The notes: generated from the sequence alone by a model not told the origin. A stretch of DNA of 64,000 nt from Planctomycetia bacterium (GCA_005799545.1 SYGM01000073.1:1190-65189), one strand, 5' to 3'. Counted from the stretch's first letter, positions 48,298-64,000 are shown. Made by a program: numbers and translations.

Positions 48298-48339
48298 GAA
48301 GTTGTCGCTGAAAACTTGGCGCTGAACATTCAGCGCTGA
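48292..48339. repeat. Four CGCTGA motifs at an exact 14-nt period spanning a convergent intergenic gap
   Basis: cgctga at 48292, 48306, 48320 and 48334 (read directly). The first contains the TGA stop of 47278..48297. The last lies in the last codons of 48330..49448 (minus strand). Confidence 0.8.
48319..48336. terminator. Palindromic hairpin gcgctgaa-ca-ttcagcgc between convergent genes (possible bidirectional terminator)
   Basis: 8+8-nt perfect inverted repeat. On the minus strand it is followed by caagttttc. There is no long T-tract, so terminator function is uncertain. Confidence 0.4.
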
Positions 48340-49448
48340 AAGATCGGCAAGAGGCTCTCCGGCAGCGCGAGGAACAGCGCGTTCATGGCCGTGGCGTAGC
48401 TCGTGCCGTAGCGCTCGTCCTTCCAGACGCCCTGCGCATTGCGCGCCCGCAGCACGCGCTCGCATTCGCGCGGATACCAGTCCTGAAACAGGGCACGCTC
48501 GCGGGCCTGCCAGAAGCACAGCGCCAGATACAGCCGCTCGTAGTAGGGGCAGGAGACATGCATCCCGTCTGCGGGATCATTGGCCTGTTCCGGTGACACT
48601 CCCGCCGCGTCGCGCCGGGCGAGCTCGAGTGCCAGCCAATCGAGTCCGCGCCGCACGCTGGCGGCTTCGTATTCGCCGGCTGCCTGAAGTGTCGCGAGCG
48701 CCGCCGCCGTGAGCGCCACGCTGGAGTGATCATCCCCGAGGCTGTAGCAGAAGGAACCATCTTTCTTTTGGGAGCGCTCGACATAGCGCACAGCGCGCCG
48801 CACGGGTTCGGCTTCGATGCGCAGGCCCGCACCCTGGGCACCGCGCAACGCTGCGAGGCACGCGATCGTCAGCGAACCCTCGTGCCTCACGCTCTTCTCA
48901 AAGCCGTACCACCAGCCGCCCTCGAGGCCCTGCGTGCCGAGGATGCAGCGGGTGGATGCGCTCAGCGCGGATTCCAGCCGCTTGCCCAGCAGTGATTGCG
49001 GGCTCTGGCACCAGGCCTGGCTCAGCGCCAGCGCGGCAAAGCCCTGACCATGCATGCGCGAGATGAGGTCGCGCTCGTCGGTGATCACGCCGCTGGTGGC
49101 GTCGGTGCGGGCGAGCAGCCATTCGAGATTGCGCTCGAGCGCCACATGCTGCCTGCCGCGACCGGGCAGGTTGCCGCCCGCCATCAGCGCCAGCGATCCC
49201 AGCGCCGTGACGGCAACGGGCGCTCCCAGGCGCGCATCCGTGCAGGCGATCGAGCCGTTCTCTTCGAGCGCTCCTGCCAGATGATCCAAGGCCGCATCCA
49301 GCGCGCGGCGGCGCAGCTCCTCCGCGCCAGACGGTGCGAACGCCGGTGCAGGCGACTGATCCTGTTCGAACGCCGCCGGCAACGGACCGCACAGCAACAG
49401 AAATGCCGCGACGAACAGGCTTCGCCGCGGCATCACAATCCGGTTCAC
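48330..49448 (-). CDS. Secreted prenyltransferase/terpene-cyclase-like alpha/alpha-toroid repeat protein (paralogue 1), ends ...LLPIFQR
   Basis: Signal 'MPRRSLFVAAFLLLCGPLPAAF'. Repeats with 'GGWWYG', 'DGSFCYS', 'GVWKDERYG' are typical of squalene-cyclase/prenyltransferase-type repeats. GTG 49448 overlaps the upstream TGA (GTGA); the alternative start is ATG 49433. Confidence 0.65.
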   Translation of the reverse strand: MNRIVMPRRSLFVAAFLLLCGPLPAAFEQDQSPAPAFAPSGAEELRRRALDAALDHLAGALEENGSIACTDARLGAPVAVTALGSLALMAGGNLPGRGRQHVALERNLEWLLARTDATSGVITDERDLISRMHGQGFAALALSQAWCQSPQSLLGKRLESALSASTRCILGTQGLEGGWWYGFEKSVRHEGSLTIACLAALRGAQGAGLRIEAEPVRRAVRYVERSQKKDGSFCYSLGDDHSSVALTAAALATLQAAGEYEAASVRRGLDWLALELARRDAAGVSPEQANDPADGMHVSCPYYERLYLALCFWQARERALFQDWYPRECERVLRARNAQGVWKDERYGTSYATAMNALFLALPESLLPIFQR

Positions 49449-50332
49449 GGACGCTGGTTGAGCTTCTTGTAGTAGCTGTCGATCCAGTCGCGGTAGCGCG
49501 CGGGGTACTCACCGCCGCCCTGCGAACGGAACACATCGCGCGCGTGCTCGGGCAGGAAGCCCCAGGTTTCCGCGGTGTTGGCGTTGTTCGCGACAGCGCC
49601 CTTCTCCGAACCCGGAGGCGGTGCGCCATCCTGCTGCGTGGCAGGCTGATCCGAGGCCCGGTTGCCATCGGGACGACCCTGTCCTTGCGGCTTGTTCTGC
49701 GCCGTCGCCGGCTGCTGGCCGCCGCCCGCTTCGCGGCGGTCCGCGCCGGTCTGTTCACGCTGCGTGGTCGCATCGCGAGAACCTTCCAGCGGGCTCTGCT
49801 TGCCGGCACTGGGTTGCTGGCTCTGCGCGGTCTCACCCGAAGGCGAGGAGCCGGGCTTCTTGCTGACGGTCTTGCGCAGCGAAGAGCACTGACCGCTGGA
49901 GCAGTCCGAGTTGCTCTGCTTGGGAATGGACGCCAGCTCAAGGATCTCGTCGATGCTCTTCACGACCGACTCGCTCTCGCTCCGGGAGCGCTTCATCAGT
50001 TCGGTCATGGCCTTGGCGGACTGACCCGCCTCCCGGGCCGCATCACCGGCGCCGCTGCCGCCCGCCGCAGCGTTCTCGAGCAGGCGGTCGATGCTGCGCA
50101 GCTGCTTCTCGACATCGCGGATCAGCTCTTCGAGACGCGCATCGATCTCATCGTCGGTCTGGTTGCCGCCGAGCACCGGAGGCAGCTTGACATCGATCGG
50201 AGGCGCCGTTTCTTCAACGGGCTTGGCTCCGCTCGGCTGGCCTTGCTCCTGAGCGGTCAGCGGGAAGGCGAGGCACAGCGCGGCGAGTGCGGGGATCCAG
50301 CGGTTGCGTTGCATGAATCGATTCTCCTTCAT
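49445..50332 (-). CDS. Secreted low-complexity (Q/G/S/P-rich) protein with conserved-looking C-terminus, unknown function
   Basis: ATG 50332 overlaps the upstream TGA (ATGA). Signal 'WIPALAALCLAFPLTAQE'. Short coiled segment. C-terminus 'WGFLPEHARDVFRSQGGGEYPARYRDWIDSYYKKLNQ'. Confidence 0.55.
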   Translation of the reverse strand: MKENRFMQRNRWIPALAALCLAFPLTAQEQGQPSGAKPVEETAPPIDVKLPPVLGGNQTDDEIDARLEELIRDVEKQLRSIDRLLENAAAGGSGAGDAAREAGQSAKAMTELMKRSRSESESVVKSIDEILELASIPKQSNSDCSSGQCSSLRKTVSKKPGSSPSGETAQSQQPSAGKQSPLEGSRDATTQREQTGADRREAGGGQQPATAQNKPQGQGRPDGNRASDQPATQQDGAPPPGSEKGAVANNANTAETWGFLPEHARDVFRSQGGGEYPARYRDWIDSYYKKLNQRP

Positions 50333-53199
50333 GGATTTTCGTCCTCCGGATCCGGAAGACCCAGTCGTTTCCTGAATTTACCAAACAAATCCGTGGTGCG
50401 CTGGTGTTTCCAGGCCAGCCGCTGGAGGTCCTCCAGCACGAGGGGGTCGGCGGGTTCGGACCCGTCGCCGGCCTCCAGCTCGGGGTGCAGCTTGAGGAAT
50501 TTTTCAATGGAGCGCTGGTTCTCGACCTCCATGCGCCGCAAGAGCTTCAGCTCAGCCACATCCGGCACCAGCTTCGGGGGAGGCGGCTGGCCTGAGTTGG
50601 GCTGGTTGGGATCCTGCTGCTGCTGCTGCTGCTCGGGTGGCTCCTCGCGCCGGCGCTGCTTCTCCTTCTCGAGGGCCTCGGCCAGCCAGTTGAGATTGTC
50701 GCGCACGTCCTGCTGCAGGCCCTGGATGCGCTCGCCGCTCTGGTACTCGCCCTCCTCGCCCATGTCGCGGCCGATGCGCTCCAGATCGGCCTTGAGCTGC
50801 TCGAGCACCTCCGCGAACACCAGACTGCCCTCTTCGGCGATCGCCTTCTGGATCGTCGCCGCGCGCGCGGCCAGTGCCGCCTCGGCCTTGGCGATCTTCT
50901 TGAGTCGCAGGCGCTGGGTGTGGCTGGGGCGCTCACTGCCTTCGCGGGCGCGCTCGACCTCCAGCGTGGCGTCGATCTGCAGCTGGTGCTCGCTCGCCAT
51001 CTGGCGCACTTCCTCGGCGATGCGGAACAGCAGTTCTTCCTGACGCAGCCGCTGGTACTGCTCCTCCTCCTGCGAGAGCTCGCGCTGCGCCTGCTCCATC
51101 TGGCGGCGCGCTTCCTCCGCCGACTGCTCGCCCTCGTCCATTTCTCCTTCGCGGAAGGACTGCTGCGCCTGCTGGGCGCTGCTCTGCGCACCCGAGAGGC
51201 TCTGGGGCTGTGACTGGGCATTGCGCTGGCGGTTGCGTTCGGCAAGCTCGGCAAGTGCCTTGCGCACGCGCTCCTGCTCCTTGGCGAGCTCTTCGGCGGC
51301 GCGCTTTTCTTCCGGAGTCTGCGGCGCGCGCGTCTGGCCGGCAGCCTGCGCCGCCTTCGAGAGGGCCGACTGAGCCTGGCTCTGCGACTGCGAAGCCGAC
51401 TGGCTGCGCCCTTCGTTGAGCTGGGCTTGCGCGGACTGCATCGCCTGCTCCGCGGCTTCGAGCGCCTGCTCGGCCGCCTGCTGCGCCTGCGGGCTCAGGC
51501 CGGACTGCTGCGCGGCGCGCTGCAGCGCCTCGACCTCGCGGGCGAGCGCCTGCTGCTCCTGCGACAGCGCTTGCTGCTCGGGACGCGAAGCCGATTCCGC
51601 CGCGGAGGCCTGGCGCGCGGAATCGAGCGCGGACTGCGCACGCTCCATGGCCTGGCGCGCAGCTTCAGCGGCCTGCTGCGCGTTCTGTGCCGACTGGGCG
51701 GCCTGCGGAGTCTGACCCGCCTGAGCCTGCTGCGCCGATTGCTGCGCAGCCTCGCTGGCGGCCTGTGCCTGCTGCGCGGCTTCCTGCAGTGCCTGCTGCG
51801 CTTGCTGCCCGGCGGGGGAGTTGCCTTGCGGAGCCTCGGCCATGCGGCGGGCCAGCTCCTGTGCGCTCTGGGCCTGGGTGGCCTGGGAGCGCGAGAGCGC
51901 CGGCGCCAGTTCCTCAAGCTCCGACAGACCGGAGCGCAGCGCGCGCTCGGCGGCCGACAGCGCCTCCTGAGTGCCGCCGTTCTCGGATTGAGCCTGCTCG
52001 AGCTTCTCGAGCGCCTCGCGCGCCACGGCGGCGGCACCGCTCTCACCCTGCGCGCGCTCGCGCAGGCCTTCCGCCGCGCTCTGCGCGCCTTGCTGCGCAT
52101 TCTGCTGCTGCTCACGCGCAGCCTGTTCCAGCTGCTCGGCCTGCGCCTCGAGGGTCTTGGCCGCGTTCTCGCGGCCGGCGGCTTCCTTGCCCGCCGCCTG
52201 CGCGGTCTCCGAACCCTGCGTCAGCTGTTCCCCTGCGCGTCGTGCCGCCTCACCGCCCGAGATGCGCGCCGCCTTGTTGTCGCGCTCGGCCGCTGCGGAA
52301 AGCTCCTTCGCTATCTGCTCGGAGCTGCGCTCGCTGCCGCGCAGATCCTGCGCGGCGCCGCGCAGCTCCTGTGCGGCCCGTTCCAGTCGCTCCGCACGCG
52401 CGCTCGACTCCACGGCGCGCTGCAGCGGCTCCTGCAGCGGCGCGAGGGCGCTGTTTTCCTGCGGCGAGAAGCTCTTCGCCACGTTGGCATCGGTGGCCTG
52501 ATCCTTGCGCAGCTGCGCCAGCTCCGCCGCCAGCTGCTCCAGATCCAGAGCGCGGTTCTCGCGGGCCAGTGCCTCGGTGCGCTCCTGCAGCGCGCGCTGA
52601 CGCTCGCGCGCCGACTCCAGCCGCGTCAGCAACTCGCGCTGTTCGGGCGTCTGCATGCGCTCCTGCTGGGCCTGGGCCTGCTCGACGATGCGAGCCTCAT
52701 CCTTGGCGAGCTGCGCCAGATCCGCGGAGATCTGCTTGAGGTCCTTGAGCGCCTTTTCGAGGTTGTCCATCCCCGCGCGGTCCGTCAGGATCTCGTACAG
52801 GCGCTCGAGGCTCTTGACGACCTGCATCTGGGCATCGAGGGCCTGCACGGAAGCGCCCGTGTCGATGCCCTTCTGCGAGGCTTCCATCAGCTCTTCCAGC
52901 GTGCGGTTGCCGTACTCGGCCCGACGCTCCTCGAGGTGCACGATGCCCTGACGCAGCAGCTTGGCGGCGTGCGTGCGGCCCTCGGCATCCATGCGCTGGG
53001 CCAGGAGCTCCATCGTGGAGCGCAGGCGCTTCAATTGGCGCAGCAGCAGCGCCTGATCCTCGGCCAGTGCCTGGCGCGTGCGCGCATCGCCCCCGGACTG
53101 AGTCGGCGCAGACTGGGTCGGCGCGGACTGGGGAGCGGCAGACGGCTGCGGCCCGGTGTTCGACAGCAGAAGGAGCGAGAAGGCAAGCAACGGAAGCAT
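50329..53199 (-). CDS. 956-aa secreted Gln/Ala/Glu-rich coiled-coil protein, unknown function
   Basis: Start moved to ATG 53199 ('MLPLLAFSLLLLSNTGPQ'), 2 nt after the upstream stop. Long heptad-like A/Q/E/R stretches. Q6 run encoded by (CAG)6. C-terminus 'VPDVAELKLLRRMEVENQRSIEKFLKLHPELE'. Confidence 0.65.
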   Translation of the reverse strand: MLPLLAFSLLLLSNTGPQPSAAPQSAPTQSAPTQSGGDARTRQALAEDQALLLRQLKRLRSTMELLAQRMDAEGRTHAAKLLRQGIVHLEERRAEYGNRTLEELMEASQKGIDTGASVQALDAQMQVVKSLERLYEILTDRAGMDNLEKALKDLKQISADLAQLAKDEARIVEQAQAQQERMQTPEQRELLTRLESARERQRALQERTEALARENRALDLEQLAAELAQLRKDQATDANVAKSFSPQENSALAPLQEPLQRAVESSARAERLERAAQELRGAAQDLRGSERSSEQIAKELSAAAERDNKAARISGGEAARRAGEQLTQGSETAQAAGKEAAGRENAAKTLEAQAEQLEQAAREQQQNAQQGAQSAAEGLRERAQGESGAAAVAREALEKLEQAQSENGGTQEALSAAERALRSGLSELEELAPALSRSQATQAQSAQELARRMAEAPQGNSPAGQQAQQALQEAAQQAQAASEAAQQSAQQAQAGQTPQAAQSAQNAQQAAEAARQAMERAQSALDSARQASAAESASRPEQQALSQEQQALAREVEALQRAAQQSGLSPQAQQAAEQALEAAEQAMQSAQAQLNEGRSQSASQSQSQAQSALSKAAQAAGQTRAPQTPEEKRAAEELAKEQERVRKALAELAERNRQRNAQSQPQSLSGAQSSAQQAQQSFREGEMDEGEQSAEEARRQMEQAQRELSQEEEQYQRLRQEELLFRIAEEVRQMASEHQLQIDATLEVERAREGSERPSHTQRLRLKKIAKAEAALAARAATIQKAIAEEGSLVFAEVLEQLKADLERIGRDMGEEGEYQSGERIQGLQQDVRDNLNWLAEALEKEKQRRREEPPEQQQQQQDPNQPNSGQPPPPKLVPDVAELKLLRRMEVENQRSIEKFLKLHPELEAGDGSEPADPLVLEDLQRLAWKHQRTTDLFGKFRKRLGLPDPEDENP

Positions 53200-53201
53200 G
53201 G

Positions 53202-55532: not shown

Positions 55533-55546
55533 GTGGCCTGTTCTTT

Positions 55547-56674: not shown

Positions 56675-56681
56675 CCTCCGT

Positions 56682-59600
56682 TCATTGCCACAACTCCAGG
56701 CGGCGCTCGCCGCGCACGAGCAGACTCGACCCCATCGGAATCAGCTCCAGACTGTCGCTGGAACCGAAGTATTCCTGCGGCAGCGCGCGCTTGTCCGCCC
56801 TCACCAGCCCGCTGGCCCGGTCGAGGAAGACCAGCTGCGCGCCGATGGCGTTGGAGCGATTGGGCTGCATGCCCGGAGTGTAGGCCAGCACCACGGTTTC
56901 CTCGGAAAGCGCCGGCAGCGGAGTCTGCGCGCCGCTGATCTCCTTCCAGGGCGTCAGCAGTGTCGTGACCCAGCGCTCGCCGCTCGTCAGATCGACGCAG
57001 CGCACGCGCGCTTCCTGCGGATTCTGCGGACGGCGCGAGAGCACGAACAGCTCGGGACTCGGCAGCGGCCGGCGCCGCCACTGTCGCGAGCCGAGCAGCC
57101 GGTCGTCGAAGGCCAGACGCACATGGCTCAGCGGTGCGAGCGCGCCGATTTTCGTGGCAAGCTCGATCAGCTGCGGCGAGCGCTGCGAGGCGCCGTTGCC
57201 GATCGGACGCAGGTAGAGCCAGGTGCGCTCGCCGTGCTGCAGCACGACGCTCAGCTGACGGCGCTCCTCGCCGCTGCCCGAGAGATCCAGCTCCCACAGC
57301 CGCTGCAGGCTGCGCACGGAGTGGCATTCCACGCGGCTGATGCTCGAGTGATCGATCCAGGGTACGAGCAGGCGCTCGCCCTCGACCCAAGCATCGGCTT
57401 CCAGCCGAGCCTGCGCACCCGCGGCCAGCGCAAGGCTGCCGATGCGCCGGCCGGTGTACAGGTCTGCGATCTCCACCTCGCTGCCGCCCATCTGCGGCAG
57501 GAAGCACAGCCGATCTTCCGCGACCAGCGGCAGCGCGCGCTGACCGTGGCTCGCGCTTGCCCGCGACCACAGCTGGCGGCCCGTGCGCGCCTCGAATGCG
57601 ACCAGTCGGTTTTCGGGTACCTCGTTGCGTGCGAGCACCATGACCACGCCGCTGCCGCTGCACAGGCCCAGCGCCACCTCCTGGGACTCGAGGAACACGC
57701 GCCAGCTGAGCTCGCCCGTGCCCGCATCCAGTGCCAGCACCTGCGTGTCCGACGCGATCACAACGCGCTCATGCATCAGGCGCGCCTGCGTGCGCCAGTC
57801 TGCGGCGGCAAGTTGCTGGCCCATTTCGGGCGGCAGATCGGTGGACCAGCGCGGAGCGGAGGCGTCCTTGGCGCTCCACGCCGTCAGCTTCCAGACGCGC
57901 GTCTGCGGCTCGATCAGCGCCACATAGACCAGTGCTTCGCCACGCACGGTCTGCGTTCCGAGGAAGTGGCTCGCGGTGTCGATCAACCAAAGGCGCGGGG
58001 GATCGGGCCGAAAATTCGCGCCGGGGGCGGCCAGTGTGCTGTTGAGCGTGCTCTGCAGCGAGCGTCGCAGCGCCTCCGCGCGTTCGGCGAGCCCCGCGGC
58101 CTGCGCGCTGCCGGCAGTGTCACCGGCCGCCCCGGCTGCGCGCGCCAGAGTCTGAAACAGCGTCTGCGCCAGTTCCAGCGAGCCGGAATCCGCGAGCCCG
58201 CTCGCAGCACGCTTCCAAAGCGCAAGCTCCGCGGGCGGCAGGCTCGCCGGATCCAAAGGACCACCGGCGCGCTGGGCCAGAATCGCGATCAGCTCCGCGG
58301 CGTTGCCGGAGGCCGCCGCGCGCTCCAGACGTGCATCAGCGGCGCGCGCCGCCGCACGGGTGCCCGGCCACCAGTTCTCCAGCTGCAACAGAGGCTCTTC
58401 GCCCGCGCCGCTGCCGACGCGGCTGTCAGCGCTGCCTTGAACGCTGAGTGCGCGCTCCAGCTCGACCTGGGCGCGCTGCTCGTAGCCGACGAGCTGCTCC
58501 GGCGCGCTGCCGCTCACCAGTGCCAGCATGCGCGCGCGCGCCAGCACTCCGGCCGTGCCCGTGCCTTCGCGGGTGGGCAGCTCCACTCCTGCATACTCGC
58601 GCACCAGCGGTTCCAGCGCGCGCAGCTCGTCATCGACGCGCCCGGCGGCGCGCGCGCTGCGCGCCCGCTCACAGGCGATCCACAGCGGCACCGGCAGTTC
58701 GCGGTGGTTCTCGCCAACGCCTGGAGCGAAGGCCAGCGGATCCTCGCCGTCGATCGGCAGGCACACGATCGCCAGCGCTCCGCCTTGCTGTTCGAACTGC
58801 TCAAGCAGCGCCGCGCGGCCGGCGGCATTCTCGAGCTGATACTCGACCAGCAGACCTTCCAGCCGCTGCGCCGTGCTGACCGCCAGCGTGCGTGCGCGCT
58901 GCAGCAGCTTCAGCGCGGCGCGCTGGTCGGCGAGTCCGCGCTCGGTCTGCGCCCATTGCCACACCACTCGCCACACGAGCTCGCGATCCTCTAGCGGAGC
59001 ATCCGCCAGGCCGCCGAGGCGTGAGAGGCGCTCGTCGGCCTCGCGCAGCTCGGTGCGCGCGCGCAGTGTGTCGCCGCTCTCCAGCGCGGTGCCGGCACTC
59101 GCCAGCAGGAGCCGGGCGACCAGCAGCGTCTTTTCGCGGTCGGACGGCTGTGCGTCCGCCTCGGAGCGGGCGCGCGCGATCATGCGCTCCCACTCGAAGA
59201 AGCCCTGCACGCCGCCGCGCGTGATGCGGAAGAGCTCGCCGCGGCCCAGCAGCAGGTTGCCCGTGCTGTCCATGGGAATGCTCGCGCGTGCCCGGCCGCT
59301 GTCGAGTTCCAGCTCGACGCGCGAGTCGAGCAGCGCCAGATGCAGCGCATCCCGCGTCAGCACAGGCCGGCCGAGCGCGGTCGGGTTGGACAGATCCTCA
59401 TGCTCGAACTGCCAGGACAGGCGCCGCGGCGCACCGTTGGAAAGCCCGCCCGCATTGCCGAGCGCCAGCAGCTTGGTGCCCAGCACGAAGACCTTGTCCG
59501 CCGTGGCGCCCGCGAACATCAGCTCCTGACCGCGGTAGCGTGCCGCGCCCTGCGCCATGAAGAAGCTGTAGGGCAGCGACCACAGCAGCGCGCCGCTGCG

Positions 59601-61214
59601 CGTGTCGATCGCCACCAGATCGGGGCTGTCGTACGGCGTCGCGAGCAGCAGCGAGCCCACCAGCACCGGAGGACTCTGCCGCCACACGTTGACCAGCGGC
59701 TGCGCTTCCATGCGTGAGTAGTTGCGCTCGATCACGATCTGCTCGTAGGCCGTCTGCCACAGCAGCTCGCCGTTGAGAGCATCGATCGCCGCGACCGTGC
59801 CCAGGCTCGTCAGCGCATACACGCGGCCGTTCTCGACGACCAGCGGCGGTGCGCAGAACTCGGAGGCCTGCCGGCCGAACATGTTGAGCTCGCGCTGCCC
59901 GCTGATCAGCGAGCGCGACCAGCGCAGCGCGCCCGTGTCGAGGTCGATGCAGGCCACATGCAGATCGATGCGGCCCTCAATGCGTGCGTAGGGCGCGTAA
60001 ATGCGGTTGCCGGCGATCACCGGCGGGCCGCAGATGTTCATGCGCTCGAGGAATGATCCGCCGGTGCCGTCCCAGTTCGGCGGGGGACGGTGATTCCACA
60101 GCGGTTTGCCGCTGGCGATCTCGAAGGCCGCCAGACGCCGCTCTGGCATCGGCTTGAGAATCTCCATCTGGCCGAAGGTCTGGCGTTCGTTGAGCGCGAA
60201 GGGCAGTTGCTGCGCGGCCACGACGATCTGCGCGCCAGCGGCCGCGGCGTACTGCGCGGTTTCATCGTGCACGGCGAGCGAGAGCTCTTCGCGCGCCCGG
60301 TTGGACAGTCTGGCCCAGCCCGGCGGCTCCTCGCTCTCCCACAGGCGCGCTCCGCTGAAGGCGTGCAGCGCGATCAGGCGGCGCGGCAGCGCCACGAACA
60401 GCGTGTCACCCGAGCGCGTCAGCTGCAGCGCGTCAGAGGAGGGGGAGCGTCCGGACACGATCTCACCCAGTCGGTAGGCTTCCGGCCACTGGCTGGCCGC
60501 GGGACCCGGCGCGCTGAGCTCCAGGCGCGCGCGCGCTCCAGGCTGGAACGAGCCGAGCGCCTCGCGCTCGCGCTGCGGTGCATCGCGGGCGGGTGCCCGC
60601 AGCTCGTCGAGCAGCGAGCGACGGCCCGCGGAGAGCGTGCCGAGACTTTCCGGGTCGTTCTCCAGCGCACGCGACCAGGCGTCGAGCGCCTGCGCCTCCC
60701 GGCCGGCTTCCAGCTCGAGATCGCCCAGCGCGAACAGTGCCTGCGTCGCGATCCTGGTCCACGGATGCAGGCGGGCGAGCTCGGCCAGCACGGCGCCATC
60801 GCGCTCACTGCGCGCGCGCTCGAGCATGCCTTCCGCGCGGTTGATCTGACGTTCGCGGTAGCGCTCCAGAGCTGGCGCAGGCAGCGTGCGCAGGAGCTCG
60901 CGGGCCTGCGCGCTGGCGCTCAGGAAAACCGGCTGTTGCGAGCGCACGCCGCCGGGCTCCTGCACGCCCGGCAGCACATCGCCCGCGTGCTCGGCGATCA
61001 GCAGTTCCAGCTGGTCGATGGCCTCGATCCAGCGTTCACCGTTGATGTGTTCGCGCGCTTCGTCAAAGCGCGCCTGTGCGAGGCGCGTGTTGGGGATCGA
61101 GTACGTGTGCGAACCGGTGTCTTCCGGCTGCTGCCGGCCCGCCCGGACCGGCGAGACCGACGAAACCGGCCCCATCAGTGCGGCCAACGCCAGCAGGAGC
61201 AGGTGCGCGCCCAT
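56682..61214 (-). CDS. 1,510-aa secreted protein: N-terminal TPR region + multiple PQQ/BamB-like beta-propeller repeat blocks separated by helical repeats
   Basis: Start at ATG 61212-61214 overlaps the upstream TGA (61214-61216). Signal 'MGAHLLLLALAALMGPVSS'. Repeated '...G(K/A/E)xLW...' strands ('GKPLWNHRPP', 'GALRWSRSL', 'GELLWQTAYE', 'GALLWSLPYS', 'GELSWRVFLE', 'GRQLWSRASA', 'LQRLWELDLS'). Confidence 0.65.
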   Translation of the reverse strand: MGAHLLLLALAALMGPVSSVSPVRAGRQQPEDTGSHTYSIPNTRLAQARFDEAREHINGERWIEAIDQLELLIAEHAGDVLPGVQEPGGVRSQQPVFLSASAQARELLRTLPAPALERYRERQINRAEGMLERARSERDGAVLAELARLHPWTRIATQALFALGDLELEAGREAQALDAWSRALENDPESLGTLSAGRRSLLDELRAPARDAPQREREALGSFQPGARARLELSAPGPAASQWPEAYRLGEIVSGRSPSSDALQLTRSGDTLFVALPRRLIALHAFSGARLWESEEPPGWARLSNRAREELSLAVHDETAQYAAAAGAQIVVAAQQLPFALNERQTFGQMEILKPMPERRLAAFEIASGKPLWNHRPPPNWDGTGGSFLERMNICGPPVIAGNRIYAPYARIEGRIDLHVACIDLDTGALRWSRSLISGQRELNMFGRQASEFCAPPLVVENGRVYALTSLGTVAAIDALNGELLWQTAYEQIVIERNYSRMEAQPLVNVWRQSPPVLVGSLLLATPYDSPDLVAIDTRSGALLWSLPYSFFMAQGAARYRGQELMFAGATADKVFVLGTKLLALGNAGGLSNGAPRRLSWQFEHEDLSNPTALGRPVLTRDALHLALLDSRVELELDSGRARASIPMDSTGNLLLGRGELFRITRGGVQGFFEWERMIARARSEADAQPSDREKTLLVARLLLASAGTALESGDTLRARTELREADERLSRLGGLADAPLEDRELVWRVVWQWAQTERGLADQRAALKLLQRARTLAVSTAQRLEGLLVEYQLENAAGRAALLEQFEQQGGALAIVCLPIDGEDPLAFAPGVGENHRELPVPLWIACERARSARAAGRVDDELRALEPLVREYAGVELPTREGTGTAGVLARARMLALVSGSAPEQLVGYEQRAQVELERALSVQGSADSRVGSGAGEEPLLQLENWWPGTRAAARAADARLERAAASGNAAELIAILAQRAGGPLDPASLPPAELALWKRAASGLADSGSLELAQTLFQTLARAAGAAGDTAGSAQAAGLAERAEALRRSLQSTLNSTLAAPGANFRPDPPRLWLIDTASHFLGTQTVRGEALVYVALIEPQTRVWKLTAWSAKDASAPRWSTDLPPEMGQQLAAADWRTQARLMHERVVIASDTQVLALDAGTGELSWRVFLESQEVALGLCSGSGVVMVLARNEVPENRLVAFEARTGRQLWSRASASHGQRALPLVAEDRLCFLPQMGGSEVEIADLYTGRRIGSLALAAGAQARLEADAWVEGERLLVPWIDHSSISRVECHSVRSLQRLWELDLSGSGEERRQLSVVLQHGERTWLYLRPIGNGASQRSPQLIELATKIGALAPLSHVRLAFDDRLLGSRQWRRRPLPSPELFVLSRRPQNPQEARVRCVDLTSGERWVTTLLTPWKEISGAQTPLPALSEETVVLAYTPGMQPNRSNAIGAQLVFLDRASGLVRADKRALPQEYFGSSDSLELIPMGSSLLVRGERRLELWQ

Positions 61215-63604
61215 CAGACCAGCTCCCACTTCTTGCGCAGGATCCACTCCGCGCACAAGAGTGCCAGCGCCAGAGCCAGCGTCGAGAAGCTGTCCCAGAT
61301 GTCATCCAGCTCGGAGCTCAGCGGCTCGCGCCGCTCCTCGCCGCCCGGCAGCGCGTCTTTGAGCGCGCGCAGATCGGAGAGCTCCATCGCGAGTCCTCCG
61401 CTGCCCTGCGCCAGGCGGGCCATCAGTTCAGGATTGGGGGCGGGTTCGTTGTTCTCGCGCGAGGGCAGCACGACTTCGAACTCAGTGCTGGCGCTGCGCT
61501 GCGTGCCGTTGGCGCCGGCTTCGCTCTCGATCCACGCGCGGTAGACGCCCGCGCGCTCGGGTTCGAGCGAGACGCGGTACTGGCCCGGGCGCTCGGGCAC
61601 CAGTTCCAGCCGCAGCGGCGTCACCTTGCCCTCCGGATCCTCCAGTCTGGCCTCGACCTCGGTGGCGGTGCCGGGGCGGTAGTCCTCATCGAGCACACGC
61701 GCTTCCAGCACCACGCGCTCATCCAGATCGTAGCGCGAGCGCAGCGCATCGAGCTGCACGCGCCGATCGCCGCTCTTGAGGCGTCCCAGCGCCACCCAGC
61801 GCAGCGCGTTGCGCCAGAAGCGTTCGTGGAAGCGATCGCCGAAGCGGTAGCGCCACATCCAGGTCGAGTCGATGCCGATGAAGAGCGTGCGTCCGGCGGG
61901 GAAGTAGCCCGCGACCATCAGCGGATGCTTGCCCGCCGCATTCTGCGCCTGGGGGTGGCGCAGGAGCGACTCGGCGCCGGGCTTGGCGCGCAGCGCGGGA
62001 TAGAACCAGGTGAAGCCGCGCAACCCGCCCTGTCCTTCCCACAGCGCGCGGTTCTCCTCGACGTCGCTGGTGAGGCGCACGATCTCGTGCGGCGCCTTGG
62101 GTGCTTCCAGCTCGCCGTGGAACTCCTCGCCGCTGGCATCGCCCAGCGCAAGTCCCGTGGGATCGATCACGATCGGCAGCAACTCCTCGACCGGGGTGCC
62201 GAGGAACGAGCGCGGGTTGTCCATCTCGCCTGCCTGGCTGATCAGGCCGCCGCCGCGCTCGACGAACTCCTGCAGCGCGGAGAGGAACTCATCGCACGCG
62301 CGCGGGTCCGCGGAGATGCGGAAGGGGTTGACGTCGCCCAGGATCACGATGTCGTAGTTCTCCAGCAGCGCGCGTCGATCGGTCGGCACGCGCTCCAGCG
62401 CCGGCACGCCCTTGGTTGATTCCTGTACGAAATCCGGCGTCGCGGAGAGCAGGAAGCACTGCGCCTGGATGTTCTGGTCCGAGCGCAGCAGCAGATTCTT
62501 CAGATAGCGGTATTCCCAGCGCGGATAGCCGTCGACATACAGCACACGCAGCTTCTCCGGCGTGATGCGCACCGTGAAGTCGACCTGATTGTCGTCGGTC
62601 AGCGTCTCCTCGGGCTGAACGGGCACGCGCACGCGCAGGCGGCGCTCGCTGCGGCCGGCTTCCATCGGGACCGGCGGCGCGATCAGCACGACGCGCGCGC
62701 CCGCTGCGCTGAGCTCGGCGGACTCCTCGCTGATCGGCAAAGCGCGGCCCTCGCCGTCGATTTCCTCGAGCACAACGGCCGTGCGTGCGCCGCCGGGCGT
62801 TCCGCGGCCGACCAGCCTCACGCTGACCTCGATCTCATCGCCTTCCAGCGCGCTGGGCGGCGCTTCCGCGATCTCGACCAGCGCGTTCTTCTCCGGCCGC
62901 GTGTCGCCGACGACGATGGTGTGCACGGGGATGCCCATGCTCGCCGCATTGCGCGCAACATCCTCCGGCGGCAGCCCGGAGTTGTTGCGGCCGTCGGAGA
63001 GCACGATGATGTCCGTGACATGGCGTCCGCGGTGCGTGGCGAGCGCCTGCGACAGCGCCGCACCCAGCGCGGTCGCGTTGGAGCGCCCGCTGAGCGCGGA
63101 GGAGTCCGCCAGCGGCTCGAGCGTCTCGCCGAAGCGGTAGGTCTTTGCCAGGTAGCCGCGTTCGCGGGCCTGCGCCAGCACGACCTTGTCGAGCGCCGCG
63201 CGCGTGAGGTCGATGCGGCGCGCACCCTCGGGCGCACGGCCGAGCAGCTCCTCGAGCGCATCGCGGCGGCGCTCCTGGCCCACATAGGCGTCCTGCCGCA
63301 GCATGCTGGCCGAGTCATCGACCAGCACCAGCACTTCGGCGGGCCGCACTTCCTCGCGCCGTTCGACGAACACCGGCCGGAACAGGATCGCGAACAGCAG
63401 CAGGAAGGCGAGCGCGCGCAGGCCGGCGAGCACGATGCGCCGGCGCAGCTCCACGCCCTGTCCCAGATAGCTGATCCACGCGAGCACGAAGCTGCCGGGG
63501 ATCACGAGCAGCACGACGATCCACAGCTCGGGCAGATCGAGCAGCTGGAAGGTGGCGCGCGTGCCCTCGCCGGACAGCGCTTCCTGCAGTAAAGCGAGGT
63601 TCAT
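61214..63604 (-). CDS. Membrane protein: N-terminal two TMs + von Willebrand factor A domain + class-I glutamine-amidotransferase-like domain + C-terminal TM (BatA/BatB-neighbourhood type)
   Basis: Start at ATG 63602-63604 overlaps the upstream TGA (ATGA). 'LPELWIVVLLVIPGSFVLAWISY', 'LRALAFLLLFAILFRPVF'. MIDAS 'VLVLVDDSASM...TDIIVLSDGRNN'. 'RVLYVDGYPRWEYRYLKNLL...YDIVILGDVNP'. C-terminal 'FSTLALALALLCAEWIL'. Confidence 0.7.
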   Translation of the reverse strand: MNLALLQEALSGEGTRATFQLLDLPELWIVVLLVIPGSFVLAWISYLGQGVELRRRIVLAGLRALAFLLLFAILFRPVFVERREEVRPAEVLVLVDDSASMLRQDAYVGQERRRDALEELLGRAPEGARRIDLTRAALDKVVLAQARERGYLAKTYRFGETLEPLADSSALSGRSNATALGAALSQALATHRGRHVTDIIVLSDGRNNSGLPPEDVARNAASMGIPVHTIVVGDTRPEKNALVEIAEAPPSALEGDEIEVSVRLVGRGTPGGARTAVVLEEIDGEGRALPISEESAELSAAGARVVLIAPPVPMEAGRSERRLRVRVPVQPEETLTDDNQVDFTVRITPEKLRVLYVDGYPRWEYRYLKNLLLRSDQNIQAQCFLLSATPDFVQESTKGVPALERVPTDRRALLENYDIVILGDVNPFRISADPRACDEFLSALQEFVERGGGLISQAGEMDNPRSFLGTPVEELLPIVIDPTGLALGDASGEEFHGELEAPKAPHEIVRLTSDVEENRALWEGQGGLRGFTWFYPALRAKPGAESLLRHPQAQNAAGKHPLMVAGYFPAGRTLFIGIDSTWMWRYRFGDRFHERFWRNALRWVALGRLKSGDRRVQLDALRSRYDLDERVVLEARVLDEDYRPGTATEVEARLEDPEGKVTPLRLELVPERPGQYRVSLEPERAGVYRAWIESEAGANGTQRSASTEFEVVLPSRENNEPAPNPELMARLAQGSGGLAMELSDLRALKDALPGGEERREPLSSELDDIWDSFSTLALALALLCAEWILRKKWELV

Positions 63605-64000
63605 GCGCCCGGCCTCCGGCGACGGCCGATGAAGGCCGCAAAGAGACTCTCGACGACGAGGAAGCACAGTGTGGCGATCGCCAGCGCGCGCCACAGCTCG
63701 CCGCGCTCGGGCTCGGGCTTGTCGGCGCTCTCCCGCTGTTCCGCCTGAGGCAGGCGCAGCGCCCGGTGTAGGGAGCCGAGCTCCTCGCGGGACAAGCGCT
63801 CCAGATCGCCTTCGCGTGCGTCGAACTGCACGGCAAACCAAGCCGGCGACGCGCCTTCGCGCAGAACCGCGTAGGCGCCGATGCGGTCGGTTTCCTCGCC
63901 GCCGATCGCGGGCAGCTTCCAGCGGCCGCCTTCCAGCGCCTTGGGCTCGCCGAGCAGCGCCCGCTCGACTCCGCCGGGCTTGGAAAGACGCAGATTGCGC
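63601..64000 (-). CDS. 3' part of an upstream operon gene (protein with C-terminal TM anchor); 5' end outside window
   Basis: The frame of ORF 63601..63831 stays open to the window edge ('...LSKPGGVERALLGEPKALEGGRWKLPAIGGEETDRIGAYAVLREGASPAWFAVQFDAREGD...'). C-terminal TM 'LWRALAIATLCFLVVESLFAAFIG' followed by RRRR. Confidence 0.5.
   Translation of the reverse strand, partial: RNLRLSKPGGVERALLGEPKALEGGRWKLPAIGGEETDRIGAYAVLREGASPAWFAVQFDAREGDLERLSREELGSLHRALRLPQAEQRESADKPEPERGELWRALAIATLCFLVVESLFAAFIGRRRRPGA

What the first reader, a model, noticed from the sequence alone, without database searches (positions are those of the whole stretch)
48330..64000. Operon of at least 8 translationally coupled envelope genes with no assignable enzymology: best candidate for an undescribed system
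Every gene from the window edge (64000) down to 48330 is on the minus strand and tightly packed.

Junctions:
- ATGA overlaps at 63601-63604, 61212-61216 and 50329-50332.
- GTGA overlap at 49445-49448.
- Gaps of 2 nt (53200-53201), 7 nt (56675-56681) and 14 nt (55533-55546).

Gene products in order:
- a C-terminally anchored protein (partial);
- a 2-TM + VWA (MIDAS DxSxS) + GATase1-like + C-terminal-TM protein;
- a 1,510-aa TPR + multi-beta-propeller protein;
- an alpha/alpha-toroid protein;
- a double-TM 776-aa protein;
- a 956-aa Q/A-rich coiled coil;
- a 295-aa low-complexity secreted protein;
- a second toroid paralogue.

All carry signal peptides or TM anchors, and none has a recognisable catalytic motif. 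The VWA membrane protein recalls MoxR/DUF58/BatA-type ('aerotolerance') loci. The two toroid proteins, the giant propeller and the giant coiled coil are not components of the Bacteroides bat operon as I know it. The stoichiometric coupling and the mix of scaffold folds (VWA, propeller, TPR, coiled coil, toroid) suggest a large periplasm- or envelope-spanning assembly rather than a pathway.
Basis: partly seen in the sequence, partly recalled or inferred. Interest (0 to 1): 0.7.

Follow-up and report, generated by a model that had tools for sequence, protein, structure and literature searches.

The report
Planctomycete extended MoxR–BatA envelope operon
The eight tightly packed genes are the downstream part of a ten-gene operon, strictly conserved in uncultured Planctomycetota, that extends a widespread but still unexplained ATPase-linked (MoxR) cell-envelope gene cluster with extra non-enzymatic scaffold proteins.

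Summary
Window 48330-64000 carries seven complete minus-strand genes and one partial one, joined by overlaps or gaps of at most 14 nt.

That makes a 10-gene operon. Its order is collinear in every sufficiently long locus among 160 fetched from Planctomycetota genomes and metagenomes.

It is not a wholly undescribed system:
- The first four genes match the Rhizobium MoxR-DUF58-BatA-GATase1_like operon (the RL3499-RL3502 type).
- The 776-aa, 956-aa and 295-aa proteins are one DUF4175-like protein split into three genes. They are fused in relatives.
- MoxR-DUF58-BatA-DUF4175 plus GATase1_like clusters recur in other bacteria.

Specific to this lineage are the 1,510-aa TPR/propeller protein and two secreted (alpha/alpha)6 toroids. 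Both toroids end in a conserved LPIFQR C-terminus.

No catalytic motif was found outside MoxR. Function remains inferred: a MoxR-controlled periplasmic scaffold anchored in the inner membrane. Verdict: a new variant of a known but uncharacterised kind, of moderate interest.

The parts
63601..64000 (-). 3' end of the BatA-type gene (last 132 codons of a 748-aa protein). Architecture: N-terminal double-TM BatA/TIGR02226 domain, VWA with MIDAS, CARDB Ig-like domain, weak GATase1_like, C-terminal TM ending in RRRRPGA.
   Evidence: Frame translation. The full gene lies on the source contig, L001 7758-10004. Pfam BatA 2e-18, VWA_2, CARDB. TIGR02226 77.5 bits against a cut-off of 23. MIDAS DxSxS present in 59 of 60 orthologues.
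61214..63604 (-). g7, 796 aa: two N-terminal TM helices, periplasmic VWA (MIDAS D96-S98-S100, T178, D204), a beta-rich middle, a GATase1_like domain without a conserved Cys, and a C-terminal TM with an RKK tail. It is a paralogue-like partner of BatA.
   Evidence: Pfam VWA and GATase1_like. Hydropathy. Invariant columns of alignment A3. DxSxS in 74 of 74 orthologues. 23% identity to the fourth gene of the Rhizobium MoxR operon. Fused to BatA in a Gemmataceae MAG.
56682..61214 (-). g6, 1,510 aa, secreted: N-terminal TPR, a PQQ_2/BamB-like beta-propeller, a helical-repeat middle and a second propeller. It is the fastest-evolving large component (median 31% identity).
   Evidence: Pfam PQQ_2 1.8e-39, TPR_2, EMC1-type propeller. 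NCBIfam BamB and PQQ-dehydrogenase scores far below their cut-offs. Present at the same position in the related loci.
55547..56668 (-). g5, 373 aa, secreted single-domain (alpha/alpha)6 toroid with QW-type repeats. It is the second most conserved protein of the operon (median 64% identity). It ends in LPIFQR-stop (55547-55567).
   Evidence: Pfam Prenyltrans and SQHop_cyclase_C. PDB sequence hits to SHC. AF2 pLDDT 83, pTM 0.83, with a low-confidence C-terminal tail. Foldseek returns generic (alpha/alpha)6 barrels with TM 0.5-0.6. No DxDD. C-terminus conserved in orthologues.
53202..55532 (-). g4, 776 aa: TM hairpin, conserved cytoplasmic helical segment of about 75 aa, third TM, three to four periplasmic Ig-like beta-sandwiches, and a long C-terminal helical bundle. 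It corresponds to the N-terminal part of a DUF4175-like protein.
   Evidence: AF2 pLDDT 87. Foldseek finds only tandem Ig/FnIII rods. The profile links it to PF13779-carrying proteins at E 1e-57 to 1e-30. Pfam DUF4175 hits in relatives P0058 and P0068.
50329..53199 (-). g3, 956 aa, secreted, Q/A/E-rich helical (presumed coiled-coil) protein. It corresponds to the middle part of the DUF4175-like unit.
   Evidence: Composition. Collinear in the related loci. Occupies the position of the long tail of the fused 1,162- and 1,269-aa relatives, whose C-terminal regions resemble g3 by eye. The BLAST match of those relatives covers only g4.
49445..50332 (-). g2, 295 aa, secreted, largely low-complexity, with a conserved C-terminal motif ...YPARYRDWIDSYYKKL. 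It corresponds to the C-terminal part of the DUF4175-like unit.
   Evidence: The same motif ends the single-polypeptide relative P0068 (...PPRYRKQVEDYYKALAR). It also occurs in the 182-aa gene of plasmid pPL62-3. Collinear in related loci.
48330..49448 (-). g1, 372 aa, second secreted (alpha/alpha)6 toroid, a paralogue of g5 at about 26-29% identity. It also ends in LPIFQR-stop (48330-48350). It is the last gene of the operon.
   Evidence: Pfam SQHop_cyclase_C. Paralogy. C-terminal motif conserved. A convergent gene follows.

Best explanation
The region is the downstream 70% of a 10-gene operon: MoxR, DUF58, BatA, g7, g6, g5, g4, g3, g2, g1. It is a Planctomycetota-specific elaboration of the widespread MoxR-DUF58-BatA-GATase1_like(-DUF4175) envelope gene cluster.

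Proposed mechanism:
- A cytoplasmic MoxR AAA+ hexamer, with the soluble VWA-like adaptor DUF58, acts on the cytoplasmic loops of three inner-membrane proteins: BatA, g7 and the DUF4175-like g4.
- Their large periplasmic parts are VWA domains with intact metal-ion adhesion sites, Ig-like rods and helical bundles. Together with the secreted partners they form a non-enzymatic periplasmic scaffold.
- The secreted partners are the coiled-coil g3, g2, the TPR/propeller giant g6, and the two toroids g5 and g1.
- ATP hydrolysis would assemble, remodel or release this scaffold.
- The conserved free C-terminal LPIFQR peptide of the toroids would serve as a docking peptide.
- The likely physiological role is envelope architecture or integrity, as in the Rhizobium operon.

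Shown: gene content, homology, predicted topology, motifs, co-conservation and gene fusions. Inferred: the physical complex, the direction of control, the docking role of LPIFQR, and the envelope role.
For: **Operon and conservation**
- MoxR (AAA_3, 209 bits), DUF58 and BatA lie immediately upstream on the source contig.
- Gene order is strictly collinear in 80 genome loci (BatA to g1) and 80 metagenome loci (MoxR to g3). It holds down to about 30% identity of g7 and g4.
- Junction overlaps are conserved.

**Motifs**
- Walker A GVPGLAKT is present in 47 of 48 MoxR orthologues.
- The DxSxS part of MIDAS is present in 53 of 53 DUF58, 59 of 60 BatA and 74 of 74 g7 orthologues.
- In g7, D96, S98, S100, T178 and D204 are all invariant.

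**Gene fusions linking the parts**
- BatA and g7 are fused in a Gemmataceae MAG (1,636 aa).
- In P0073 and P0068 the N-terminal part matches g4 by BLAST. The C-terminal regions resemble g3 by eye, and P0068 ends in the g2 motif.

**Topology**
- BatA and g7 have two N-terminal TM helices, a large ectodomain and a C-terminal TM with a basic tail. This is the topology shown experimentally for the BatA-type protein BB0173, whose VWA domain is periplasmic (PMC5700661).
- g4 has a conserved cytoplasmic segment between TM2 and TM3.

**No enzyme signatures apart from MoxR**.

**Related operon**
- The homologous four-gene Rhizobium operon is reported to affect cell morphology and envelope integrity. 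This rests on the title of Vanderlinde et al. 2011, cited in PMC5118466. Homology to it was shown.

**Toroid tail**
- The LPIFQR tail is conserved in both toroids and in distant cluster variants.
- AF2 does not pack it confidently.
Against: - No experiment bears on any member of this extended cluster, and no complex prediction could be run.
- Bat/MoxR operons have given inconsistent phenotypes. Deleting all bat genes in Leptospira biflexa changed neither growth, morphology nor oxidative-stress tolerance (PMC3557215).
- g5 is conserved at enzyme-like levels (median 64%). It carries nearly invariant His, Asp, Glu and Cys residues. That sits uneasily with a purely structural role.
- How a cytoplasmic AAA+ would transmit work to periplasmic domains is unknown for any Bat-type system.
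- The coiled-coil nature of g3 was judged from composition only.
Confidence: 0.5

Rival explanations
1. The operon is built around a periplasmic enzyme. The highly conserved toroid g5, and perhaps g1, would modify or bind a glycan or a polyprenyl/hopanoid-type lipid. The VWA, Ig, coiled-coil and propeller proteins would position it, and MoxR would load or activate it, as MoxR proteins do for other enzymes.
For: - g5 is the second most conserved product (median 64% identity, against 31-45% for its neighbours).
- It has nearly invariant polar and aromatic clusters: ESDMS...C, RMY(D/S)HAF and GHYFFWYGHYY.
- Its fold is shared with glycoside hydrolases (GH76, MmpH), epimerases, the transaldolase AprG and class II terpene cyclases.
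- Databases name it a terpene cyclase/mutase family protein.
- MoxR/VWA pairs are known activators of enzymes (quoted in PMC8926400).
Against: - There is no DxDD motif.
- Foldseek gives only moderate matches (TM 0.5-0.6, 8-19% identity) spread over unrelated enzyme families and the non-catalytic complement TED domain.
- The paralogue g1 lacks most residues conserved in g5.
- Cluster variants without any toroid exist: pPL62-3, L085, L171 and L172. A toroid enzyme therefore cannot be the core function.
Confidence: 0.2
2. It is a stress or conflict system: a MoxR-vWA module that protects the envelope against pore-forming or membrane-damaging attack, like Arc2 of Pseudomonas. Alternatively it is a member of the MoxR-vWA-beta-propeller ternary conflict systems.
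For: - The MoxR gives a Pfam bpMoxR hit of 49.7 bits.
- The operon contains MoxR, vWA proteins and a TPR + propeller protein with an N-terminal hydrophobic segment. This resembles the third component described by Kaur et al. for planctomycetes and others (PMC7159879).
- Arc2 (PA4317-23) contains MoxR and VWF proteins and defends against the pore-forming toxin ColA (PMC8926400).
Against: - The defining vWA-propeller fusion is absent.
- The P-loop is GVPGLAKT, not GxxxTAKS.
- AAA_3 scores far higher than bpMoxR (209 against 50 bits).
- No PADLOC family is hit.
- The cluster is rigidly collinear. It shows no effector swapping or variable region, unlike conflict systems.
- In the contigs examined it sits among housekeeping genes such as enolase and pantoate ligase.
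Confidence: 0.1
3. It is a membrane-shaping or coat-like machine. g6 combines beta-propellers with alpha-solenoid/TPR regions, like the membrane-coat-like proteins reported in PVC bacteria. Together with the MoxR-driven anchors it would shape invaginations of the cytoplasmic membrane from the periplasmic side.
For: - g6 has a propeller plus helical-repeat architecture and a signal peptide.
- PVC membrane-coat-like proteins are defined by that domain combination (PMC2799638).
- The rest of the operon is anchored in the inner membrane.
Against: - The resemblance is of architecture only. No sequence or structure comparison with the published coat-like proteins was possible.
- g6 is absent from the one Gemmataceae locus and the one Planctomyces plasmid locus examined.
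- The coat-like paper does not mention MoxR or VWA neighbours.
Confidence: 0.05

Closest known systems
RL3499-RL3502-type operon of Rhizobium leguminosarum (MoxR, DUF58, BatA_N+DUF4159 protein, GATase1_like membrane protein)
   Same: - The first four genes correspond in order.
- MoxR is 50% identical and DUF58 is 26% identical.
- The third gene carries the same BatA/TIGR02226 double-TM N-terminus.
- The fourth gene is homologous to g7 (23% identity over about 580 residues) and has a GATase1_like domain.
- The operon has been linked genetically to cell morphology and envelope integrity. This rests on the title of Vanderlinde et al. 2011, quoted.
   Different: - The Rhizobium operon stops after four genes.
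- Its third protein has a DUF4159 domain, and no VWA family was listed for it.
- It has no DUF4175-like genes, propeller or toroids in the operon.
Bacteroides/spirochaete aerotolerance (Bat) loci
   Same: - MoxR, DUF58 and BatA-type proteins (two N-terminal TM helices, a periplasmic VWA with MIDAS, a C-terminal TM) are adjacent.
   Different: - No BatC (TPR-only), BatD or BatE (TPR+SH3) equivalents were detected.
- BatA and g7 here are more than twice as long, with Ig-like and GATase1-like extensions.
- Six further genes follow.
- The function of Bat loci is itself unresolved.
Uncharacterised cluster in other bacteria: DUF4159 - GATase1_like - (340 aa) - DUF4159 - MoxR - DUF58 - BatA/VWA - DUF4175 (loci L171, L172, L085; organisms not identified; the only named relative of these DUF4175 proteins is from Gemmatimonadales)
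   Same: - It has the same five families: MoxR, DUF58, BatA+VWA of about 690 aa, a GATase1_like protein of about 756 aa, and a DUF4175-like protein whose N-terminal half is homologous to g4.
- P0068 (L085) ends with the g2 motif.
   Different: - There the DUF4175 protein is one polypeptide of about 1,160-1,190 aa.
- The GATase1_like gene lies upstream of MoxR.
- DUF4159 paralogues are present.
- There are no toroids and no giant propeller.
MoxR-vWA-beta-propeller ternary conflict systems (Kaur, Burroughs, Iyer, Aravind 2020)
   Same: - MoxR plus vWA proteins plus a protein with a hydrophobic N-terminus, TPR and beta-propeller regions.
- That system is reported from planctomycetes among other phyla.
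- The MoxR gives a weak bpMoxR Pfam hit.
   Different: - No vWA-propeller fusion.
- Canonical P-loop.
- No variable region.
- Rigid synteny.
Class II terpene cyclases / prenyltransferase beta subunits (the database names given to g5 and g1)
   Same: - (alpha/alpha)6 barrel with QW-type repeats.
   Different: - Single domain of about 370 aa with a signal peptide.
- No DxDD.
- A beta-hairpin insertion.
- A conserved free C-terminal LPIFQR.

Membership tests
MoxR-DUF58-BatA envelope operons (Bat / RL3499-RL3502 kind) | MoxR (AAA_3) ATPase gene with intact Walker motifs in the same operon | tested here: met
   On the source contig, L001 5818-6801: AAA_3 at 2e-62, Walker A GVPGLAKT, Walker B DEINR. 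It lies outside the window. It is present upstream in every sufficiently long metagenome locus.
MoxR-DUF58-BatA envelope operons (Bat / RL3499-RL3502 kind) | DUF58 (VWA-like) gene next to MoxR | tested here: met
   PF01882 at 7.5e-44. DxSxS in 53 of 53 orthologues.
MoxR-DUF58-BatA envelope operons (Bat / RL3499-RL3502 kind) | Protein with the BatA / TIGR02226 N-terminal double-TM domain | tested here: met
   PF07584 at 2e-18 and TIGR02226 at 77.5 bits (cut-off 23) for the 748-aa protein whose 3' end is window 63601-64000.
MoxR-DUF58-BatA envelope operons (Bat / RL3499-RL3502 kind) | GATase1_like membrane protein homologous to the fourth gene of the Rhizobium operon | tested here: met
   g7 against the Rhizobium 689-aa protein: 23% identity over 578 residues, E 3e-16. 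Both have PF07090.
Bacteroides Bat operon in the strict sense | BatC (TPR), BatD and BatE (TPR+SH3) genes | tested here: not met
   No such families appear among the products. The only TPR is inside the 1,510-aa propeller protein.
MoxR-DUF58-BatA envelope operons | Envelope, morphology or aerotolerance phenotype on mutation | not testable with these tools
   The organism is uncultured. Published phenotypes differ between species.
DUF4175 (PF13779 / TIGR02302-like) | Direct Pfam hit above threshold | tested here: not met
   g4, g3 and g2 of the window give no PF13779 hit even at E <= 10.
DUF4175 (PF13779 / TIGR02302-like) | Profile-level homology to proteins that carry PF13779 | tested here: met
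   A profile of g4 relatives finds PF13779-carrying proteins of about 1,100-1,200 aa at E 1e-57 to 1e-30. Relatives P0058 and P0068 hit PF13779 directly (2.4e-8 and 5.9e-10).
DUF4175 (PF13779 / TIGR02302-like) | Single polypeptide: N-terminal TM helices, then a long Gln/Ala-rich extracytoplasmic region | tested here: not met
   Here it is split into three genes, g4, g3 and g2. Relatives P0068 and P0073 match g4 in their N-terminal part and continue into a long tail; P0068 ends with the g2 motif.
Class II terpene cyclase / squalene-hopene cyclase | DxDD general-acid motif | tested here: not met
   No DxDD in g5 or g1. The homologous stretch reads ESDMS in g5 and RHEGS in g1.
Class II terpene cyclase / squalene-hopene cyclase | Score above the family cut-off; two-domain enzyme of about 630 aa | tested here: not met
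   TIGR01507 gives 41 bits against a cut-off of 431. The protein is a single domain of 373 aa.
Class I glutamine amidotransferase | Catalytic Cys (Cys-His-Glu triad) | tested here: not met
   No invariant or nearly invariant Cys in the 13-sequence g7 alignment. PF07090 scores just below its gathering threshold (26.6 against 27).
PQQ-dependent dehydrogenase / BamB | Score above the equivalog or subfamily cut-off | tested here: not met
   TIGR03075 gives 29.8 against 480. BamB TIGR03300 gives 64 against 285. Only the generic PQQ_2 repeat fold is met.
MoxR-vWA-beta-propeller ternary conflict system | vWA component fused to a C-terminal propeller of about four blades | tested here: not met
   DUF58, BatA and g7 carry no propeller family.
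MoxR-vWA-beta-propeller ternary conflict system | MoxR P-loop variant GxxxTAKS (described as frequent) | tested here: not met
   GVPGLAKT in 47 of 48 orthologues.
MoxR-vWA-beta-propeller ternary conflict system | Third component with a variable N-terminal region, a TM segment, TPR and a propeller | tested here: inconclusive
   g6 has a hydrophobic N-terminus, TPR and propellers. It is a stable orthologue at a fixed position.
Known anti-phage defence systems | Match to any PADLOC model | tested here: not met
   None of the 10 operon proteins gave a match.

The most novel reading that the evidence does not exclude
The operon encodes a so far unseen ATP-controlled periplasmic machine peculiar to Planctomycetota.
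- Two toroid subunits would dock through their free LPIFQR C-termini onto the MIDAS sites of the two VWA anchors, or onto the TPR parts of the giant propeller protein.
- A long Ig-rod plus coiled-coil stalk (g4, g3, g2) would span the enlarged planctomycetal periplasm.
- The assembly would shape or tether the cytoplasmic membrane to the outer layers. It would therefore be a structural determinant of the unusual planctomycetal cell plan.
Probability: 0.12. Interest if true: 0.8.

Novelty: new variant of a known kind. Interest (0 to 1): 0.5.

Why it matters
- MoxR-DUF58-BatA clusters are conserved across several bacterial phyla. They have resisted functional explanation since the Bacteroides aerotolerance operon was described.
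- This variant is the richest version seen here. It links the DUF families BatA, DUF58, GATase1_like and DUF4175 into one co-inherited unit and shows gene fusions that tie them together.
- It adds three partners whose folds suggest testable contacts: a C-terminal peptide, MIDAS sites and TPR regions.
- If a cultured planctomycete with a related cluster is studied, it could show what this whole class of MoxR envelope systems does. Candidates are the plasmid copy in Planctomyces sp. SH-PL62, or a cultured Gemmataceae strain if one proves to carry the cluster.
- It also corrects the database names ('terpene cyclase', 'squalene cyclase') given to the toroids.

Tried and rejected
1. **Pfam, NCBIfam and PADLOC on all products.** Nothing was found for g4, g3 and g2, and there were no defence hits.
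2. **PDB sequence search for g7.** No hit.
3. **Foldseek of the g4 model.** It gave only generic tandem Ig/FnIII rods, with no functional lead.
4. **Foldseek of the g5 model.** Moderate matches were spread over many (alpha/alpha)6 families, so no specific enzyme class could be assigned.
5. **The search for related loci with the 27-sequence g4 alignment.** This failed for lack of conserved stretches. It was repeated successfully with 17 closer sequences.
6. **Literature searches.** I searched on MoxR/DUF58/BatA, DUF4175, DUF4159/TIGR02226, BatB/BatD, and Planctomycetes with BatA. No paper on this extended cluster was found. The only DUF4175 mention is the division protein AdvA of Acinetobacter, which has a short DUF4175 match and was not pursued.
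7. **The membrane-coat-like paper.** It mentions no MoxR or VWA neighbourhood.
8. **The Vanderlinde 2011 paper.** It is not held. Only its title could be cited.
9. **Is the 335-349-aa gene of the clusters in other bacteria a divergent toroid?** No support was found.
10. **Rfam and tRNA scans of the window.** Nothing was found.
11. **Rejected readings.** A real glutamine amidotransferase, a PQQ dehydrogenase, BamB and a squalene cyclase are all rejected; see the membership tests. Fortuitous adjacency is rejected by the synteny data.

Full report
**Observation**

Window 48330-64000 carries seven complete minus-strand open reading frames and the 3' end of an eighth. I read the junctions directly:
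- ATGA overlap at 63604-63601.
- TGATG, a one-base overlap, at 61216-61212.
- A 14-nt gap before the 776-aa gene.
- A 2-nt gap before the 956-aa gene.
- ATGA at 50332-50329.
- GTGA at 49448-49445.

After the 1,510-aa gene there is a GGAGG ribosome-binding motif followed by GTG (56674) and ATG (56668). The ATG has the better spacing and is the start used in public gene calls (373 aa). That gap is therefore probably 13 nt rather than 7.

The operon ends at 48330. A convergent Peptidase_C39_2-like gene (47278-48297, plus strand) follows after 32 nt. Tight junctions are conserved in orthologous loci. For example, a start candidate at a 4-nt overlap exists in 43 of 56 BatA/g7 junctions and 56 of 71 g6/g5 junctions.

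**What lies beyond the window edge**

An exact-sequence look-up of the 796-aa protein found the source contig, a 204-kb metagenome contig (L001). Upstream of the partial gene it carries, in the same orientation:
- a MoxR ATPase (AAA_3 at 2e-62; Walker A GVPGLAKT, Walker B DEINR);
- a DUF58 protein (7.5e-44);
- the full 748-aa protein whose tail is in the window. This has a BatA/TIGR02226 double-transmembrane N-terminus, a VWA domain, a CARDB Ig-like domain, a weak GATase1_like match and a C-terminal anchor.

The unit is a 10-gene operon: MoxR, DUF58, BatA, g7 (796 aa), g6 (1,510 aa), g5 (373 aa), g4 (776 aa), g3 (956 aa), g2 (295 aa), g1 (372 aa).

**Co-conservation**

- A scan of one genome per species with a g4 alignment found relatives in 150 genomes. 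All but a handful of the 80 fetched were labelled Planctomycetota MAGs.
- tblastn with every operon protein showed the order BatA-g7-g6-g5-g4-g3-g2-g1, all on one strand, in every locus long enough to show it. g4 identity in these loci ranged from 35 to 74%.
- A metagenome scan with a g7 alignment gave 80 more loci. Wherever the contig reaches far enough, MoxR and DUF58 precede BatA and the same genes follow, down to about 30% g7 identity.
- The flanks are not conserved. The adjacency is therefore not fortuitous.
- Median identity to the window proteins: MoxR 74%, g5 64%, DUF58 59%, g7 53%, BatA 45%, g1 44%, g4 39%, g3 38%, g2 33%, g6 31%.

**What the parts are**

*BatA and g7.* They share one architecture: two N-terminal TM helices, a large ectodomain and a C-terminal TM with a basic tail.
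- The MIDAS residues are invariant in g7: D96, S98, S100, T178 and D204.
- DxSxS is present in 59 of 60 BatA and 74 of 74 g7 orthologues, and in 53 of 53 DUF58 orthologues.
- This topology was shown experimentally for the BatA-type protein BB0173 of Borrelia, whose VWA domain faces the periplasm (PMC5700661).
- The GATase1-like domain of g7 has no conserved cysteine, so it is not a working amidotransferase.

*g6.* It has TPR and PQQ_2/BamB-like propeller repeats. It scores far below the cut-offs for PQQ dehydrogenases and for BamB.

*g4.* The model is confident (AF2, pLDDT 87).
- It shows a TM hairpin, a helical cytoplasmic segment of about 75 residues, a third TM, three to four Ig-like beta-sandwiches and a long helical bundle.
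- The cytoplasmic segment carries one of the best-conserved motifs of the family, and the same motif is visible in the distant relatives P0068 and P0073.
- Foldseek against the PDB returned only tandem Ig/FnIII rods such as adhesin stalks.

*g5 and g1.* They are single-domain secreted (alpha/alpha)6 toroids.
- Evidence for g5: Pfam Prenyltrans/SQHop_cyclase; AF2 pLDDT 83, pTM 0.83.
- Foldseek matches are moderate (TM 0.5-0.6). They scatter over GH76, MmpH, AprG, epimerases, small class II cyclases and the complement TED domain.
- There is no DxDD motif.
- Public databases call g5 'terpene cyclase/mutase family protein' or 'squalene cyclase'. The defining catalytic motif and the family score cut-offs are not met.

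**The three 'unknown' genes are one split protein**

- A profile built from g4 relatives finds proteins of about 1,100-1,200 aa that carry Pfam DUF4175 (PF13779), at E 1e-57 to 1e-30. Two relatives hit PF13779 directly.
- The 1,162-aa relative P0068 matches g4 in its N-terminal part by BLAST. It continues into a long helical tail and ends in ...PPRYRKQVEDYYKALAR. That is the same motif that ends g2 (...YPARYRDWIDSYYKKL).
- The 1,269-aa Gemmataceae relative P0073 likewise matches g4 in its N-terminal part. Its C-terminal region resembles that of g3 by eye, and it is followed by a separate g2-like gene.
- A cultured strain, Planctomyces sp. SH-PL62, carries on plasmid pPL62-3 the series DUF58, BatA, VWA (30% to g7), a g4-like 744-aa gene, a 542-aa gene, and a 182-aa gene with the motif PPEYRTVLERYYRRL.
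- In the Gemmataceae locus, BatA and g7 are fused into one 1,636-aa protein.
- These fusions argue that BatA+g7 work together physically, and likewise g4+g3+g2.

**Relation to known clusters**

- *Rhizobium leguminosarum.* The series there is MoxR (50% identical), DUF58, a BatA_N+DUF4159 protein, and a GATase1_like protein homologous to g7. This is the RL3499-RL3502-type operon. By the title of Vanderlinde et al. [quoted passage not shown] The paper itself was not available.
- *Other bacteria.* The DUF4175-carrying relatives lie in clusters reading DUF4159 - GATase1_like - (340 aa) - DUF4159 - MoxR - DUF58 - BatA/VWA - DUF4175. The organisms were not identified; one relative is named Gemmatimonadales.
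- *What this means.* The core of the window operon is a widely conserved set of families. All of them are 'domains of unknown function' or equivalents. The lineage-specific additions are the giant propeller and the toroids. One toroid is also present in the Gemmataceae variant.
- *Bacteroides-type Bat operon.* It shares MoxR, DUF58 and BatA, but its BatC/D/E genes are absent here. The function of Bat loci is itself unresolved. Deleting them in Leptospira biflexa had no growth, morphology or oxidative-stress phenotype (PMC3557215).
- *MoxR-vWA-beta-propeller ternary conflict systems* (PMC7159879). I considered these because Pfam bpMoxR hits the MoxR (49.7 bits). The defining vWA-propeller fusion is absent, the P-loop is canonical, and the cluster shows none of the variability typical of conflict systems. 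No PADLOC model matches.

**A new detail: the toroid C-terminus**

- Both toroids end exactly in LPIFQR-stop (window 55547-55567 and 48330-48350). These are the only two such ORF ends in the 64-kb window.
- Nearly all g5 orthologues and most g1 orthologues keep the motif.
- It persists in a cluster with 30% g4 identity (YLPIFQR twice) and in Gemmataceae (YLPILQK).
- In a search of 1.84 billion representative proteins, 71 of the best 150 relatives of g5 end in a variant of it.
- AF2 gives the last ten or so residues low confidence although the barrel itself is confident.
- I read this as a free docking peptide. Candidate receptors are the MIDAS sites of the two VWA anchors, which bind carboxylates, or the TPR parts of g6, a fold known to clamp C-terminal peptides. 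This is inference from general knowledge of those folds and was not tested.

**Most likely mechanism (confidence about 0.5)**

A cytoplasmic MoxR ring with its DUF58 adaptor engages the cytoplasmic loops of BatA, g7 and g4. It thereby controls assembly or remodelling of a non-enzymatic periplasmic scaffold made of VWA adhesion domains, an Ig-rod/coiled-coil stalk (g4-g3-g2), the TPR/propeller giant and two toroids. The role would be in envelope architecture or integrity.
- Shown: homology, motifs, predicted topology, synteny, fusions.
- Inferred: the complex itself, the coupling across the membrane, and the physiological role.

**Rivals**

- *g5 is really an enzyme or ligand-binding subunit, and the rest positions it (0.2).* Its conservation is second only to MoxR. 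It has nearly invariant His, Asp, Glu, Cys and aromatic clusters that g1 lacks. Against this, cluster variants without any toroid exist, so a toroid enzyme cannot be the core function.
- *An envelope-protective stress or conflict role like Arc2 of Pseudomonas (0.1)* (PMC8926400).
- *A membrane-coat-like, membrane-shaping role for g6 (0.05).*

**Verdict**

This is a new, richly elaborated and strictly conserved variant of a known but mechanistically unexplained class of MoxR envelope operons. It is not a categorically new system. Interest is moderate (0.5). A specialist would not be astonished. The fusions, the split DUF4175 protein and the conserved C-terminal peptide nevertheless give concrete, testable handles on a long-standing 'conserved unknown'.

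Noticed in passing
window 47278-48297 (+): A secreted Peptidase_C39_2-like protein (339 aa) converges on the operon end, 32 nt from the g1 stop. A relative lies in the same place in loci L004, L016-L018 and L027.
   Followed up: partly
window 46148-47257 (-): A secreted HEAT-repeat protein (369 aa). Relatives lie downstream of the operon in L004-L006, L012 and L027, so it is loosely linked to the operon in close relatives only.
   Followed up: partly
window 42469-45072 (+): An 867-aa protein combining PA14, DUF7133 and a C-terminal 3-keto-disaccharide hydrolase domain. It is unrelated to the operon.
   Followed up: no
L001 3780-5662 (source contig, beyond window position 64000): A 111-aa single-TM protein directly after enolase is conserved about 2.5 kb upstream of MoxR in about 20 related loci. 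A fast-evolving ORF of about 500-880 aa sits between it and MoxR. These ORFs are homologous to each other, but by BLAST only one (L097, 38-39%) was similar to the 510-aa ORF of this organism. They could be further members of the operon or merely syntenic.
   Followed up: partly
window 55547-55567 and 48330-48350; proteins P0074-P0223: The C-terminal peptide LPI[FYL]Q[RK]-COOH marks a large family of small secreted (alpha/alpha)6 toroids. The family has 672 representatives at E<1e-30. 71 of the best 150 end in the motif. Whether all of them sit in MoxR/BatA clusters is unknown.
   Followed up: partly
L169 (Planctomyces sp. SH-PL62 plasmid pPL62-3, 551-10735): A reduced copy of the cluster (DUF58, BatA, g7-like, g4-like, g3-like, g2-like) lies on an 81-kb plasmid of a cultured planctomycete. 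An NPCBM/DUF1583 protein and a WD40 protein follow it. This is a possible experimental entry point.
   Followed up: partly
L085 13513-21006: In this relative, the fused DUF4175-like gene is followed by a run of small unknown genes. Among them are a PF13941 ('MutL', actin-like ATPase fold) protein and a DUF6754 protein. This may be another accessory module.
   Followed up: no
window 50001-52000: Strongly negative AT skew (-0.31) over the g3 gene. It is presumably caused by the Q/A/E-rich codon usage of this gene on the minus strand.
   Followed up: no
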